From a virus (Duplodnaviria > Caudoviricetes), in IMG/VR virus record IMGVR_UViG_3300025000_000097, positions 1 to 63,432 of that record: DNA of 63,432 nucleotides; one strand, 5' to 3'. The notes beneath the pieces were generated by a model that was not told the DNA's origin, searched no databases, and saw only the letters and a list, made by a program, of their open reading frames with translations. Position numbers and translations under genes: made by a program. Positions 24,699-28,607 of the stretch are shown in pieces. Position 1 is the stretch's first letter. The number at the start of each line of letters is the position of its first letter.

Positions 24699-24773
24699 TA
24701 TAATCCTTGGGTTGTTGCTGCTTGATGTTTTAACTATACCGCAGTCATTTCTGAATGTACACATTTATTTTGC
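24699..24773 (-). repeat. 75-bp promoter/leader cassette; inverted copy at 56566-56640
   Basis: 73/75 identity; contains TGTACA-17-TATAGT. Confidence 0.9.
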
Positions 24774-24789
24774 ATGTGCTGCATTTTTT

Positions 24790-26227
24790 TCAAAACTCGT
24801 AATAGCACCTCGTGGCAGGTTCGATAATATGCAGTGATTGCTTGGCTCGGGTGGCCCCTACGTAAAAGACCCTATGTTCGCAGTCATTGTCCTGCTGATA
24901 ACCCTCGTACGTCTTGGGGCTCATATCGGTCATTAGCAGCACGTTATCCGCCTCCCCACCCTTGACGCCATGGATGGTCGAGATGTTTATTCTGGGTGTC
25001 TTGGTGATGCTCTCACCTCGCCGCAGCATACTTATATAGTACTCACGATCATCGTATGATATACCTGTCAGAGCTTCATGCCAAATCTGGTTGCCCCAGG
25101 GCTTGCCCCGTAGCTGTTTCGGTAGAAAGGTTTCTACCAAGGTGCGCTCCTCTTGCGTAATGGCTTTACCCTTACGATGATCCTCCCACCAACGGATGGC
25201 CTTCTGATGGTTTATGGTTACAGCAGGAGCACCTCTGAACGTATACGGTATTCCCTCATTGCGTACGATCTTAACCAATGACTGCAACAGGTGAATGTTC
25301 CTAGCAAGCAGCAACCAGGTACCAGCGCCCAAGTCAACGTCGTCTGGCTGCCGATGCCACTCAACCAAGCCCGCTTCATCCTTCGCCTGGAATGGCTTAT
25401 CAAACCGCCTACTGATCTGCGAGGTGATCCCTACGGCCAGATCATGAACGCTCCTGGGGATACGCCAGGATTGATCCAGGATGATCCTCTTACCCTTGAG
25501 CCCGAGCACGTGGTCGATATCTGCCCCAGACCATTGGAATATGCCTTGATCGTCATCTGCCCCGATGTAGACCCGTTGCGCGTTGCAGAAGGCTCGCCGC
25601 GCGAACTCCCACTGCAACGTGCTTAGGTCTTGTGCTTCATCTATTATAACGACGTCGACGTCTGCTGTAGCATCAGCAGCCTCGAGCATGTCGGAGAAGT
25701 CGATTAGGTTCTTGACCTTCTTGTATTCTTTGAGGGTAGCTATGAAACGTCTGAACTCATACCAGTCCAGCTCCTCATTGCCCATGATATCCCAGACAGC
25801 CTCTGCTGTCATGCACCGTGATCTTGCCAGCCCATCGAGGAAAGTGTAGCGGTCGCCGAGGAAACGGCTGGAAGGGATGCCCTCTTCGGCATCGAAGCGG
25901 GTGGAGAACTCTACACCAAGCATGTCACCGAGCTCATGATAATTCTTTGACTGGATTACCTCATCACGCCGCACGCCCAGAATGCGAAAAGCCAGCGAGT
26001 GCAGCGTTCTGAAGTGGATGAGGTTTTGCTTTGAGAGTCTAAATTCTGTCATGACCCGCTCCATTGCCTCTTCCACTGCCTTCTTGGTGAATGACACGAA
26101 AGCAACGCGCTCAGGAGCGACACCGCGGGCTATTTCCTGCTTGATGATCGAAATGAGCTTCGTAGTTTTACCTGTACTCAATTCAGCCCGGCGGGCCAAG
26201 TATCAGTGTCTGCTCTTGCTCACTCAT
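24790..26227 (-). CDS. UvrD/Rep-like SF1 helicase interrupted by a 10-nt gap (26176-26185) in Walker A
   Basis: MSEQEQTLILGPPG-[TGAATTGAGT]-TGKTT; FRTLHSL, IIDEAQD, DDDQ, QSWR, STIHGVKGGEAD, FYVGATRAK. Confidence 0.85.
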
Positions 26228-26637
26228 ACTTTAGCCCGCCGGATTCCTGTGTCACTCCATTGCTGCAACATGTGATACCTCGCATGCTCTGATTGATTAG
26301 GGAACACCTTAATATTATCAGGCGCAAAATTAGTGCGATCATTATCTTCATGATGCACTACCTCATCTGGAAGTAATTCTCTTCCTAATAACTGCACCGC
26401 TATTACTCGGTGTGCATGTTGTTGATGTAATTTAGGATAGTGCTTTGCTGTCCCAGTGCCTCTTAACTTTTCTCCGGTATTATGCTGCCCACGTCGAGAC
26501 TGCTCTTCACTTGTTAAGGTCCGCACATTATGACCACTAATAAAACGCATTATTTGACCAGCAACTTGATTGCGATAAGTTCTAGTCTTCTTAGCAATGG
26601 GTGCTGGTTTACCGCAACCACATTCACAAAGTTTCAT
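26224..26637 (-). CDS. free-standing HNH homing endonuclease
   Basis: CECGCG, FISGHN, HRVIA...LGRELLPDEVVHHEDNDRTN..PDN...EHARYH; stop overlaps the helicase ATG. Confidence 0.9.
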   Translation of the reverse strand: MKLCECGCGKPAPIAKKTRTYRNQVAGQIMRFISGHNVRTLTSEEQSRRGQHNTGEKLRGTGTAKHYPKLHQQHAHRVIAVQLLGRELLPDEVVHHEDNDRTNFAPDNIKVFPNQSEHARYHMLQQWSDTGIRRAKV

Positions 26638-26834
26638 AGGCAGTATTTCTCCCATATTCTGATGATGCGCACAATTTGCCCAAGGGAATAACCTCTGTTG
26701 CCCACCCGCTCCATCATGTCAGAAATGAAGTCGAGCTCCCAATCGATCACATCGTTGTCCTTGATGTAGGCATCTATCTCCTTGACTAGCTCCCATGTGC
26801 GTGCATTATTGTGCTTACTTACGGGCATCGCCAT
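26634..26834 (-). CDS. hypothetical protein
   Basis: WELDFISDM...Q.....IWEK motif. Confidence 0.6.
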   Translation of the reverse strand: MAMPVSKHNNARTWELVKEIDAYIKDNDVIDWELDFISDMMERVGNRGYSLGQIVRIIRIWEKYCL

Positions 26835-27045
26835 CGGGTGCCTCCATCTTCCAGTACTGCTTTATCGCCTGCTGCTCGTACTGAAGCAAACAGGCCAGCT
26901 GCAGAATGAGCAGCACGCCGCCGAGCTGATAGACAGCGCGCCAGGTATCGGGCACACCGCCGACGGTAAAGAAGATAAAGAGAAACATGAGCATATATGG
27001 GAGCAGCTTGTATAGGCTGAACTGTATCTTTAACAATGTACTCAT
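26815..27045 (-). CDS. small membrane protein
   Basis: Two hydrophobic segments; coupled to the primase stop. Confidence 0.6.
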   Translation of the reverse strand: MSTLLKIQFSLYKLLPYMLMFLFIFFTVGGVPDTWRAVYQLGGVLLILQLACLLQYEQQAIKQYWKMEAPDGDARK

Positions 27046-28607
27046 TAGAAAGCCTCCGTATTAGTCATAGTTGGTTGAATAAAGTCCTCAGTCTGCCGTG
27101 CGAACTGATCTATTGACCAGCAACCAATGCAGCGTCCTTTAATCATCGGTTTATGATGCTTAGCACCTTTTCGGCGTAGGATAGCCCAGAGGGCCTTCTC
27201 CTTGAACTCTCTGAAGTGCTGCTGATCCAGGTATTTCATTAAATCCTTGCTGCGGAAATACGTTCGGCCCTCATCGGTCCATGGCTTGCCAAGCAGGAGC
27301 TCCTCTTGAGCCTTGGCCTGAACCTTGCCGGTGCAGAACTGCTCGATATGTAGGAAGAGTTGTCCTTCAGGCCCTGCATCGGGTGGGAGCTCTATGATAT
27401 CCTGCTCAGATAGCAGGTCGTTTATCATGTCTACCCACCGAGGCTCCTTTATTGGCAGCACCATCCGGTGGAACTTCTTAAGATACTCCCGTAGAAATTT
27501 CTGCTGGTCACGGATCATGTCAACGGACACATCAAACATCTTGCCTGCAATCTTGAACACCCACTGTGGTTCATCATCGCTGCCTTCTGGTGGTACATAG
27601 CACTTCACAGGACGATCCACGTCGTCCAGGATGCAAGGCCCATTTCCCTTGGCCTCCTTGTCAGGGGCAATACCGAAGGGCCGTTTGAAGCACTCTTTCT
27701 TGTTACAAACACCACAGATAGGTTGATCGTTGCACTTGTAAACGTAAGTTTGTTTCTTGGTCAGGCTCCTGATGATACCTTGCACTTCTGCATATGTACC
27801 GGGACCCATGAAGCGGTTGTTGTAGTCAAATATTTTCTCTTCCCACTCTTCTGGGAACTTACGCTTAGCATATACGCCCATGCTAAACAGGGCACTATTC
27901 TTGTTATCGGTGAAGCCTACATTGGCCAGATGTTGAAGACATGGGGGGGCATCAGCAAACTCATCTGATGCAGCCGTATTAGGCTTAATCTTTACGAGCT
28001 CAGAGCTGCTCACCGCCTTTGACTTCGCAAAGGCTATGAACTCATCAACAGGAACAGCTTTACCCGCACGAAATGCATAGCGGACAGTAAGGAGCGCCTT
28101 CTGATAAGGCATGTTGATCCAATTACCAAAGTCCTTCTCACTCTCTATCTTGTCCTGCTTTGGAAATATCTCGCTATTGACGAACCCCAATGCGAGCTCA
28201 AACTCAAGCAGCTTCTTGCGGACTATATTTGCCCGCGTAGGCTCGGTCATGAATAGGTATAGGTGACAACCACCGGACTTAGTGCGGCAGACAACCAGCG
28301 GCAACCCTAGCTTCTCAACCTTACGCTCCATCCCAACATGATCGAAGGCATCATAAAAGTCAAGGTCCAAAGCACCCCAGGAACACGTACCATCCTCACG
28401 GATAGGCGTTATCCCGATACCAATCTCGCCGGATAGGTGCTTCATCCAGAGCTCTTTGGTAATAGGCTTTGCGAGTGTTGCAGCCTTACCCTTCAGCTTA
28501 CCATTCTCATCAGGAGCTGTCCCTGGGGGGACTCTGTACTCACCATGCACCCTATCCAGTCCGGAAAACAGAGCCATAAATTCTGCTGCTAAAACGTCAA
28601 CCGTCAT
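27045..28607 (-). CDS. AEP-type DNA primase
   Basis: GALDLD, RTKSGGCHLYLF, EIFPKQ, GNWINMPY, PPCL, Cys cluster. Confidence 0.85.
   Translation of the reverse strand: MTVDVLAAEFMALFSGLDRVHGEYRVPPGTAPDENGKLKGKAATLAKPITKELWMKHLSGEIGIGITPIREDGTCSWGALDLDFYDAFDHVGMERKVEKLGLPLVVCRTKSGGCHLYLFMTEPTRANIVRKKLLEFELALGFVNSEIFPKQDKIESEKDFGNWINMPYQKALLTVRYAFRAGKAVPVDEFIAFAKSKAVSSSELVKIKPNTAASDEFADAPPCLQHLANVGFTDNKNSALFSMGVYAKRKFPEEWEEKIFDYNNRFMGPGTYAEVQGIIRSLTKKQTYVYKCNDQPICGVCNKKECFKRPFGIAPDKEAKGNGPCILDDVDRPVKCYVPPEGSDDEPQWVFKIAGKMFDVSVDMIRDQQKFLREYLKKFHRMVLPIKEPRWVDMINDLLSEQDIIELPPDAGPEGQLFLHIEQFCTGKVQAKAQEELLLGKPWTDEGRTYFRSKDLMKYLDQQHFREFKEKALWAILRRKGAKHHKPMIKGRCIGCWSIDQFARQTEDFIQPTMTNTEAF

What the first reader, a model, noticed from the sequence alone, without database searches (positions are those of the whole stretch)
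26173..26637. 10-nt coding gap in the helicase Walker A motif beside an HNH gene: candidate ribosomal-bypass/homing cassette
Seen: the helicase starts at ATG 26227, overlapping the HNH stop (ATGA). It reads MSEQEQTLILGPPG, then TGAATTGAGT (stop plus 7 nt), then ACA GGT AAA ACT ACG. Removing exactly 10 nt restores the canonical GPPGTGKTT, and all downstream motifs are intact. A 13-bp stem (26231-26243 with 26187-26199, two G-U pairs) ends in the last codon before the stop. Known: T4 gene 60 is translated by a 50-nt bypass that travels with the adjacent HNH gene mobA and protects its target, and a 10-nt bypass has been described in Streptomyces phage Hau3 terminase. Inference: this is a new bypass (or micro-intron or +1 frameshift) that makes the site immune to the neighbouring endonuclease. 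Caveats: take-off GGC and landing AGT are unmatched, and a +1 shift would give G-ELST-GKT, which also fits GxxxxGKT.
Basis: partly seen in the sequence, partly recalled or inferred. Interest (0 to 1): 0.9.

Follow-up and report, generated by a model that had tools for sequence, protein, structure and literature searches.

The report
Stop-started gap in helicase beside HNH
A phage helicase gene is broken by a 10-base insert inside its ATP-binding motif, next to a mobile nuclease gene, and dozens of related phages carry a similar 6-base insert, which suggests that ribosomes skip these bases.

Summary
On the minus strand the helicase starts at ATG 26227 (ATGA overlap with the HNH stop) and reads MSEQEQTLILGPPG, then TGA. 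After exactly 10 nt it resumes as TGKTT in the +1 frame. A strong hairpin ends inside the last codon before the stop (z -6.15). Independent contigs from two samples reproduce the junction.

In IMG/VR, 46 helicase loci carry a 6-nt insert at the same motif (GPP-stop-CYN-GxGKTT). The first inserted codon is always a stop and the next is always CCN or CUN. A covarying hairpin with a Shine-Dalgarno-like AAGGAG just upstream precedes the site; intact relatives lack it. Homologues of the window's HNH occur upstream in 15 of 32 insert-bearing loci and 0 of 136 intact loci. Helicases downstream of the stop are under purifying selection.

Best reading (about 0.55): a mobile HNH cassette whose short insert breaks the nuclease's presumed target and is skipped by ribosomes. 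That would be a 10-nt bypass here and a 6-nt stop-hop in the relatives.

Rivals are a +1 frameshift and a dead gene. No translation or cleavage data exist. The window's 10-nt form is so far unique and does not match the 6-nt family's RNA model.

The parts
26224..26655 (-). HNH_3 homing-endonuclease gene (143 aa). Its TGA overlaps the helicase ATG (ATGA).
   Evidence: ORF. Pfam PF13392, 32.8 bits against a cut-off of 24.8. 50-52% identical to the HNH genes upstream of the helicase in L046 and L094. GC is 0.39-0.45 against 0.50-0.57 in the flanks.
26186..26227 (-). Helicase segment 1: ATG plus 13 codons, MSEQEQTLILGPPG (beta-1 strand and first half of Walker A). The last codon, GGC 26188-26186, is the proposed take-off codon.
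   Evidence: Sequence. The N-terminus matches intact relatives, for example MQEQTLILGPPGTGKTTKLL in P0003.
26176..26185 (-). 10-nt coding gap that begins with the in-frame stop TGA (26185-26183).
   Evidence: Absent in L002 and in all intact homologues. Present in contigs of two samples.
24790..26175 (-). Helicase segment 2 in the +1 frame, from ACA (TGKTT...) to the stop: a UvrD-like SF1 helicase body.
   Evidence: Open frame. Pfam UvrD-helicase E 1.8e-23 and UvrD_C E 1.5e-12. All 67 invariant columns of the 28-sequence alignment A1 are kept.
26187..26243 (-). RNA hairpin. The outer arms are 26243-26231 and 26199-26187; the inner arms are about 26231-26221 and 26208-26198. The start codon lies in the 5' arm, and the 3' arm ends in the take-off codon.
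   Evidence: Inverted repeats I2 and I3. Fold of -38.9 kcal/mol, z -6.15. Analogous hairpins occur in 36 insert-bearing relatives.
26245..26248 (-). Weak Shine-Dalgarno-like AGGA one base 5' of the hairpin, with a GGAG at 26258-26255. It is a possible counterpart of the conserved AAGGAG of the 6-nt family.
   Evidence: Read. A functional role is inferred only.
27045..28607 (-). Context: an AEP-type primase gene. In HNH-less relatives it abuts the helicase directly.
   Evidence: Pfam PF22548, E 6.7e-16. The L002 primase stop overlaps the helicase start.

Best explanation
The HNH gene, the hairpin and the 10-nt stop-started insert form one mobile cassette placed at the 5' end of a phage UvrD-like helicase gene.

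Inferred: the HNH cuts the highly conserved DNA that encodes the Walker A motif in phages lacking the cassette. The insert splits that target and so protects the carrier.

Inferred: the helicase is still made because a fraction of ribosomes do not terminate at UGA. With peptidyl-tRNA-Gly on GGC (26188-26186) and the stop in the A site, the mRNA slides 10 nt. Refolding of the strong 5' hairpin behind the ribosome would help this. Decoding resumes at ACA (26175), which restores GPPGTGKTT.

Shown: the anatomy, its presence in two samples, and a large family of relatives with the same logic. These relatives have a 6-nt insert in the arrangement CCN-stop-CYN-GGN. They also have a covarying hairpin with AAGGAG just 5' of it, and a homologous HNH that is present only where there is an insert. 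For that family the simplest reading is a +6 stop-hop of peptidyl-tRNA-Pro from CCN to CCN or CUN.
For: (1) Removing the 10 nt restores a motif of invariant length: 100 of 119 homologues and 157 of 160 loci have it uninterrupted.

(2) An IMG/VR scan found 48 contigs with GPP-TRR-NNN-GxGK. All 48 have a true stop and none has TGG, and 46 are this helicase. In the scan for any 6-nt insert, 47 of the 62 non-stop matches were examined and none is a helicase.

(3) The codon after the stop is CYN in 36 of 36 unique loci, and all three stop codons occur at the site.

(4) The 60 nt ending at the take-off codon fold to a mean of -24.5 kcal/mol in 37 insert-bearing sequences, against -7.8 in 152 intact ones (p 1e-20; z -4.2 against +0.25). 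On alignment A5, 96.3% of cells pair, 7 of 12 pairs show double changes, and 0 of 500 shuffles reach this. Model R1 hits 34 of 36 unique insert-bearing loci and 0 of 100 intact loci.

(5) The HNH homologue is present in 15 of 32 insert-bearing loci and 0 of 136 intact loci. L046 and L050 are 94-97% identical in their flanks and differ by the cassette.

(6) Median dN/dS is 0.20. For the closest insert-bearing pair, dS is 0.168 and omega is 0.042.

(7) There is no change of genetic code. The insert's stop codon also ends the helicase in 11 of 29 loci, and in the window TGA ends the HNH gene 42 nt upstream.

(8) Precedent: a 10-nt bypass after a Gly codon in the Hau3 terminase was shown by mass spectrometry in E. 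coli, with a proposed 5' stem-loop plus Shine-Dalgarno signal (PMC10732093, passages). Gene 60 has a stop after the take-off codon and a homing-endonuclease link (PMC5009743, passages).

(9) The window's hairpin has z -6.15 and ends in the take-off codon.
Against: There is no protein, RNA or cleavage evidence of any kind.

The window's landing triplet AGU pairs with a Gly anticodon at only two of three positions. The nearest matched GGU would delete two motif residues.

The window does not match the 6-nt family's covariance model at E up to 1. No second 10-nt case was found: the exact-insert scan gave 0 hits, the general 10-nt scan gave 4 hits with none a helicase, and a third pattern gave 21 hits with none a helicase.

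The nascent peptide is only 14 residues, which favours drop-off.

All 46 family inserts are in frame, so for them readthrough is not excluded by frame alone.

The hairpin, AAGGAG and insert may travel together by descent, so their association does not by itself show that the hairpin drives bypassing. [quoted passage not shown]

Homing can place the cassette in already diverged helicases, so only the close pairs date selection to after the insertion.

The co-occurrence test is not corrected for phylogeny.
Confidence: 0.55

Rival explanations
1. Programmed +1 frameshift at GGC-UGA. The ribosome skips one base at the stop and reads GAA UUG AGU, giving GPPG-ELS-TGKTT. This is a helicase with three extra residues that still fits GxxxxGK[ST].
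For: The downstream frame is +1 and is open across the gap from 26199. A stop in the A site and a strong 5' structure are also known stimulators of +1 shifts. The product fits the loose Walker A pattern.
Against: GGC cannot re-pair in +1 (GCU), and no Shine-Dalgarno sequence lies 3 nt upstream as in prfB (read; the prfB rule is recalled). Any 10-nt insert at this spot gives G-xxx-T-GK by arithmetic, so the fit is not evidence. No homologue shows any length change in the motif: 100 of 100 intact calls and 157 of 157 intact loci. In the 6-nt family no sense-codon version of the insert exists, which argues that extra residues in this loop are not tolerated. A frameshift cannot explain the in-frame relatives.
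Confidence: 0.17
2. The helicase is dead or dying. The 10 nt would be a recent inactivating scar, perhaps from repair after HNH cutting. The phage would do without this helicase or make only a TTG-initiated protein lacking the first strand.
For: Under standard decoding the gene is broken. The 10-nt form is a singleton. There are no close relatives to date selection after the insertion: the best DNA relatives are 50-52% identical. Gene callers report the TTG form (P0001).
Against: All 67 invariant family columns are intact. The 14 upstream codons still encode the family's N-terminus in frame with a coupled start. The insert begins with an in-frame stop, which has a chance of about 3 in 64. A hairpin with z -6.15 ends exactly at that codon. 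The same three hallmarks mark a family whose helicases are under purifying selection. TTG 26199 has no Shine-Dalgarno sequence and would drop the core beta-1 strand (read).
Confidence: 0.15
3. Readthrough rather than hopping in the 6-nt relatives, with an unrelated mechanism in the window. A near-cognate tRNA would read the stop, and the loop would tolerate two extra residues.
For: All 46 family inserts are in frame. The base after the stop is always C, a context I recall as weak for termination.
Against: If the two extra residues were tolerated, sense-codon variants one mutation away (such as TGG or CAR) should exist and would be favoured, but none was found. The second inserted codon is held to CYN although Pro and Leu are unlike residues. 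Readthrough stimulators are usually 3' of the stop, not 5' (recalled). Readthrough cannot serve the window's frame-breaking insert.
Confidence: 0.08
4. Artefact or RNA-level removal: an assembly error, or a micro-intron or editing event that removes the 10 nt from the mRNA.
For: This is a metagenome assembly with no raw reads and no RNA run available.
Against: A second assembler's contigs from two samples agree base for base. Ten bases is far below any known self-splicing intron (recalled). The 6-nt relatives come from dozens of unrelated samples.
Confidence: 0.04

Closest known systems
Phage T4 gene 60 bypass with the adjacent mobA homing-endonuclease gene
   Same: A non-coding insert lies in a conserved replication gene. 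A stop codon directly follows the take-off Gly codon. A homing-endonuclease gene lies immediately 5'. The insert is thought to protect against that nuclease. [quoted passage not shown]
   Different: The gap is 10 nt (6 nt in the relatives) and not 50 nt. There is no room for an A-site stem-loop or a gap-internal Shine-Dalgarno sequence. The landing codon is unmatched in the window. The nascent peptide is 14 residues and not 46. The host gene is a helicase P-loop and not a topoisomerase. The hairpin abuts or overlaps the take-off codon, whereas in T4 it lies 9 nt 5'. The 5' hairpin is strongly conserved here, whereas the gene 60 5' stem-loop is reported as not conserved between clades. No sequence homology to the gene 60 cassette was tested.
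Streptomyces phage Hau3 terminase, two 10-nt inserts
   Same: It has a frame-breaking 10-nt insert with a slow-to-decode codon at its 5' end, directly after a Gly codon (junction GWG|N). The flanks match uninterrupted relatives. The proposed 5' signals are a stem-loop plus a flanking Shine-Dalgarno sequence. Bypassing was shown by mass spectrometry in E. coli after changing UUA to UAA (PMC10732093 passages).
   Different: The Hau3 trigger is the rare sense codon UUA, read as a host-state sensor. No homing endonuclease is described in the passages I read. The gene and host differ. The identity of the Hau3 landing codon is in supplementary figures that I could not open.
Synthetic 'stop-hops' in E. 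coli (matched codons flanking a stop; 9 nt give one residue)
   Same: The 6-nt relatives have exactly this layout: CCN, stop, then CCN or CUN. The 2016 review states that no natural occurrence was known (PMC5009743 passage).
   Different: The synthetic cases are low-level events without stimulators. Here a conserved hairpin and AAGGAG accompany the site. Two thirds of the landing codons (23 of 36) are CUN, which needs a G-U pair at the middle position. The window itself is not in frame.
prfB-type +1 programmed frameshift
   Same: An in-frame UGA follows the shift codon, and the downstream frame is +1.
   Different: There is no slippery codon and no Shine-Dalgarno sequence 3 nt upstream. The product would carry three extra residues in a loop of invariant length.

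Membership tests
T4 gene 60-type bypass cassette | A non-coding insert whose removal restores a conserved protein | tested here: met
   Removing 10 nt restores GPPGTGKTT, as in L002 and in the intact homologues.
T4 gene 60-type bypass cassette | A stop codon immediately 3' of the take-off codon | tested here: met
   GGC is followed by TGA at 26185-26183.
T4 gene 60-type bypass cassette | [quoted passage not shown] | tested here: not met
   Take-off is GGC and the triplet before the resume codon is AGU. The relatives have CCN to CCN or CUN.
T4 gene 60-type bypass cassette | A homing-endonuclease gene directly 5' that travels with the insert | tested here: met
   The HNH_3 gene overlaps the helicase start. 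The HNH is found only in insert-bearing loci, 15 of 32 against 0 of 136. A cassette swap is seen between L046 and L050.
T4 gene 60-type bypass cassette | A stem-loop within the gap and a nascent-peptide signal about 14-30 residues back | tested here: not met
   The gap is 10 nt and the nascent chain is 14 residues, so there is no room for either.
T4 gene 60-type bypass cassette | The insert protects the DNA from the neighbouring nuclease | not testable with these tools
   This needs a cleavage assay.
Hau3-type short (10-nt) bypass | A frame-breaking 10-nt insert with a slow-to-decode codon at its 5' end, and flanks contiguous in relatives | tested here: met
   Here the slow codon is UGA and not UUA.
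Hau3-type short (10-nt) bypass | A 5' stem-loop with a flanking Shine-Dalgarno sequence | tested here: inconclusive
   The stem-loop is strong (z -6.15). The flanking motif in the window is only AGGA. The 6-nt relatives have a conserved AAGGAG.
Hau3-type short (10-nt) bypass | A junction peptide showing that the gap is skipped | not testable with these tools
   This needs expression and mass spectrometry.
6-nt stop-hop family found here (model R1) | A match to the covariance model of AAGGAG, hairpin and CCN-stop-CYN | tested here: not met
   There is no hit in the window at E up to 1, while 34 of 36 unique family loci hit at E up to 0.001.
6-nt stop-hop family found here (model R1) | A stop-started insert in the GPPGxGK codons, a hairpin ending at the take-off codon, and a homologous HNH upstream | tested here: met
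   (the HNH is 50-52% identical). The window differs in insert length (10 against 6 nt), in position (after GGC and not after CCN) and in loop size.
prfB-like +1 frameshift site | A P-site codon able to re-pair in +1, and a Shine-Dalgarno sequence about 3 nt upstream | tested here: not met
   GGC to GCU does not re-pair, and no Shine-Dalgarno sequence is adjacent. The rule itself is recalled.
HNH_3 endonuclease (PF13392) | A score above the Pfam gathering cut-off | tested here: met
   32.8 bits against 24.8, residues 80-122. The His-His, Asn and His positions line up with the L046 HNH by eye.
UvrD/Rep-like SF1 helicase (PF00580, PF13361) | Scores above the cut-offs for both domains | tested here: met
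   84 bits against 23, and 48.1 bits against 25.6.

The most novel reading that the evidence does not exclude
Phage SF1 helicases host a widespread, previously undescribed class of very short programmed bypass elements. One form is a natural 6-nt stop-hop, and the window holds a 10-nt frame-changing form with an unmatched landing codon. [quoted passage not shown] HNH homing endonucleases spread the elements and use the insert as self-immunity inside an otherwise unchangeable P-loop sequence.
Probability: 0.45. Interest if true: 0.9.

Novelty: new variant of a known kind. Interest (0 to 1): 0.85.

Why it matters
Efficient translational bypassing that organisms actually use is known from very few systems: T4 gene 60 and its homologues, yeast mitochondrial byps, and probably Hau3. 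The 2016 review states that no natural in-frame stop-hop was known.

Here one site, the P-loop codons of a phage helicase, offers dozens of natural variants. They differ in stop codon, landing codon, loop size and peptide length, and there is one 10-nt frame-changing variant. Such a series is what is needed to test how a 5' hairpin and an internal Shine-Dalgarno sequence move an mRNA through a paused ribosome.

It would also show a second, independent case of a homing endonuclease travelling with a recoding signal. That would suggest a general way for selfish nucleases to colonise sequences that cannot vary at the protein level.

In practice, gene callers truncate these helicases.

Tried and rejected
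Close DNA relatives. A blastn search of the phage collection gave no match. tblastn gave at best 34% identity. The exact 10-nt insert pattern gave 0 hits in IMG/VR.

Other 10-nt cases. The general pattern gave 4 hits and a second pattern gave 21 hits. All were chance matches in other frames.

HNH relatives in other contexts (L003-L027) lie beside unrelated genes and told me nothing about this site.

Hosts. The GTDB scan gave 13 stretches. Four are real, all on short MAG contigs assigned to four different phyla with near-identical N-termini, so no host can be named.

RNAalifold on the plain MAFFT alignment A2 recovered only part of the stem, because loops of different length put rows out of register. 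I therefore used a gap-free subset (A3) and a model-based alignment (A5). The latter leans towards the model's structure.

RNA evidence. No RNA holder was listed.

The 17 homologue gene calls that start after Walker A, and the two that start MSTGKTT, may be further cases. Some may be contig-end truncations.

Other readings considered and dropped:
- A discontinuous ribosome-binding site (AAGGAG brought next to a start by the hairpin): no start codon follows the hairpin.
- Termination followed by reinitiation: same reason.
- A stop-codon reassignment: argues against it.
- Precise deletion through flanking repeats: there are no such repeats.
- The 13-nt direct repeat D1 follows from the near-palindromic GC core, and I give it no meaning.

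The supplementary files of PMC10732093 (Hau3 landing codon and structures) could not be seen.

Searches behind 'not in print': over the held library only.
Full report
THE OBSERVATION. The genes lie on the minus strand. An HNH_3 endonuclease ORF (26655..26224; Pfam 32.8 bits against a cut-off of 24.8) ends in a TGA that overlaps the ATG at 26227. From that ATG fourteen codons read MSEQEQTLILGPPG. The next codon is TGA (26185-26183). Ten bases after the GGC, the +1 frame continues as TGKTTKLIS and stays open to 24790, a UvrD-like SF1 helicase (PF00580 E 1.8e-23, PF13361 E 1.5e-12). The window is a whole IMG/VR virus record of 63,432 bp. Logan contigs of two groundwater samples from one study cover the junction with no difference, at depth 15 and 7. 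These are contigs and not reads, and one sample may be the source of the record. An 87-nt fold gives -38.9 kcal/mol, z -6.15, and 0 of 200 shuffles fold as well. The start codon sits in the 5' arm, and the 3' arm ends in the middle of the GGC codon.

WHAT INTACT RELATIVES LOOK LIKE. The closest relative with DNA (L002, 50% identity) reads MIDNPTIILGPPGTGKTT. Its helicase directly follows an AEP primase gene, with no HNH and no small ORFs between. Of the 119 other best homologues, 100 carry G-x-P-G-x-G-K-[ST] without any change of length. Another 17 gene calls begin after the motif and two begin MSTGKTT. I could not obtain DNA for these 19. Of 161 helicase loci fetched through an alignment query (80 viral and 80 metagenomic loci plus L002), 157 are intact, one lacks the flank, and three are interrupted.

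A FAMILY OF 6-NT INSERTS AT THE SAME MOTIF. The three interrupted loci (L046, L094, L173) read GPP, a stop, Leu or Pro, then GxGKTT. This is a 6-nt in-frame insert after the second Pro codon. A pattern scan of IMG/VR found 48 contigs of this kind. All 48 have a true stop (TAA, TAG or TGA; none has TGG), and 46 are clearly this helicase. Of the 48, 35 have a complete downstream ORF of 460-543 aa, two have longer ones, nine run off the locus, and two (L213, L225) are probably unrelated. A control scan that allowed any six bases at the site gave 110 stretches, that is the 48 above plus 62 others. I examined 47 of those 62, and none is a helicase. So in this family the only 6-nt inserts that exist begin with a stop. 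In 36 unique loci the next codon is always CCN or CUN, the base after the stop is always C, and the take-off codon is CCG, CCA or CCT. The insert's stop codon is also the helicase's own terminator in 11 of 29 loci, so no code change is involved.

LINK TO THE HNH. Homologues of the window's HNH (50-52% identical) sit directly upstream of the helicase, ending 37-74 nt before the GPP codons. Among unique loci with at least 600 nt of upstream flank, the HNH is present in 15 of 32 insert-bearing loci and 0 of 136 intact loci (Fisher 6e-13, not corrected for relatedness). So every HNH carrier has an insert, while about half of the inserts have no HNH. This is what repeated loss of a homing gene from an immunised site would give. 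L046 and L050 are 94-97% identical on both sides. They differ by a block that runs from just after the primase stop to the Walker A codons. In L046 that block holds the HNH, an N-terminal extension of the helicase and the 6-nt insert, and substitutions are denser than average just beyond it. In the window the HNH region has lower GC (0.39-0.45) than its flanks (0.50-0.57).

A CONSERVED RNA HAIRPIN. [quoted passage not shown] Its 3' arm is the codons for the beta-1 strand and Gly-Pro, and its 5' arm lies in an N-terminal extension or upstream leader. The 60 nt ending at the second Pro codon fold to a mean of -24.5 kcal/mol in 37 unique insert-bearing sequences (window included), against -7.8 in 152 intact ones (Mann-Whitney p 1e-20). 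The z-scores against shuffled upstream parts are -4.2 and +0.25. On a gap-free subset, 96.9% of cells pair and 5 of 12 pairs have double changes. On a model-based alignment of 34 sequences, 96.3% of 402 cells pair and 7 of 12 pairs have double changes. In that alignment 0 of 500 shuffles reach the observed values, and slid controls pair at 35-58%. That alignment is fitted to the model. The model hits 34 of 36 unique insert-bearing loci at E up to 0.001 and none of 100 intact loci at E up to 1. It does not hit the window. A Shine-Dalgarno-like AAGGAG is conserved 3-4 nt 5' of the stem, even where it lies inside the reading frame. The window has only AGGA there.

THE BROKEN GENES ARE KEPT WORKING. 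Among 25 insert-bearing helicases, 100 of 300 pairs had usable dS. Their median dN/dS is 0.20 (range 0.04-0.45). The closest pair, which shares the same insert and leader, has dS 0.168 and omega 0.042. Because homing can drop the cassette into already diverged genes, only such close pairs speak to selection after the insertion. The codons upstream of the stop still spell a beta-strand followed by GPP, as in intact relatives. For the window itself no close relative exists. However, all 67 invariant family columns are intact, and the first 14 codons match a relative's N-terminus.

HOW IT MOST LIKELY WORKS. For the 6-nt family the simplest reading is a stop-hop. Peptidyl-tRNA-Pro waits on CCN with a stop in the A site. 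It then unpairs, the mRNA moves six bases, the tRNA re-pairs with CCN or with CUN (a G-U pair at the middle position), and Gly is decoded next, which restores GPPGxGK. Several observations fit re-pairing and are not explained by readthrough. The landing codon is restricted to CYN although Pro and Leu are unlike residues. No sense-codon version of the insert exists. There is also a weak tie between the third bases of take-off and landing codons: U with U in 4 of 7 against 1 of 29, p 0.003, uncorrected. From memory, not from a call: release after a C-terminal proline is slow, and Pro-Pro-Gly is a classic stalling motif. Both would lengthen the pause.

[quoted passage not shown] They also resemble the idea that pairing of mRNA leaving the ribosome drives forward bypassing in gene 60 (bioRxiv 2024.12.09.627546). 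This role is inferred. At take-off most of the 3' arm is still inside the ribosome, and the hairpin could serve another purpose, such as control of initiation.

The window is a variant of this theme. It has the same HNH family, the same motif, a stop as the first inserted codon and a hairpin ending in the take-off codon. It differs in having a 10-nt insert after the fourth codon (GGC), a change of frame, and a landing triplet (AGU) that matches a Gly anticodon at two of three positions. A 10-nt bypass after a Gly codon has experimental precedent in Hau3 (mass spectrometry in E. coli with UAA in place of UUA).

RIVALS. A +1 shift at GGC-UGA would give GPPG-ELS-TGKTT. It is possible, but it lacks a slippery codon and adds three residues to a loop whose length never varies. 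The apparent fit to GxxxxGK follows from arithmetic for any 10-nt insert at that spot. A dead gene cannot be excluded for the window, because its 10-nt form is a singleton. However, the stop-first insert, the precisely placed hairpin and the intact motifs argue against a random scar. An artefact is unlikely. Nothing supports removal at the RNA level.

COMPARISON AND NOVELTY. The logic is that of the T4 gene 60 and mobA cassette, and the scale is that of the Hau3 10-nt inserts. It is not a member of either. It has no matched landing codon, no gap structure and no long nascent-peptide signal, and it sits in a different gene beside a different nuclease family. The 2016 review says that no natural in-frame stop-hop was known. 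Three full-text searches found no paper describing a helicase Walker A insert with an HNH neighbour. These searches cover only the held library. I rate the finding a new variant of a known kind.

LIMITS. Everything about translation and nuclease immunity is inference from sequence. The association tests are not corrected for phylogeny.

Noticed in passing
window 26304-26320: In the second sample, Logan's contigs break inside the HNH gene. One contig covers about 24744-26320 at depth 7.3 and the next starts at 26304 at depth 6.0, while the first sample has one 31.8-kb contig. This may reflect strain variation around the HNH.
   Followed up: no
proteins P0087, P0089 and 17 others: Nineteen of 119 helicase homologues are called without the Walker A start. 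Two begin MSTGKTT, which echoes the window's ...LSTGKTT. Several lie on contigs of 10-67 kb, so they are probably not contig-end truncations. They may be further interrupted genes, including 10-nt cases.
   Followed up: partly
L323, L324, L332, L334 (GTDB contigs): Four short contigs binned into MAGs of four different phyla (Bryobacteraceae, Anaerolineaceae, Elusimicrobia, Gemmataceae) carry nearly the same helicase leader, ...REFRIFGPP-stop-P/L-GTGKTTNLTRQIRRA. This is probably one phage lineage mis-binned.
   Followed up: partly
L201 and L210: In two insert-bearing loci the frame after the stop runs for 824 and 962 aa, instead of about 490. The helicase may be fused to a downstream domain.
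   Followed up: no
L228 compared with L218: These two have near-identical helicase leaders. L218 has the HNH upstream and L228 gave no HNH hit, although its upstream frame ends with a similar tail. This may be an HNH remnant caught in the act of being lost.
   Followed up: no
window 26634-27045: Two small ORFs (66 aa, and 76 aa that looks hydrophobic) lie between the primase and the HNH. They are absent from L002 and have no Pfam match.
   Followed up: partly
window 26182-26194 and 26230-26242: A 13-nt direct repeat (85% identical) overlaps the two hairpin arms. It follows from the near-palindromic GC-rich core.
   Followed up: partly
L213: A GPP-TGA-TCT-GVGKT site precedes a 492-aa frame that does not look like this helicase family. 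It could be a similar insert in another P-loop protein, or chance.
   Followed up: no
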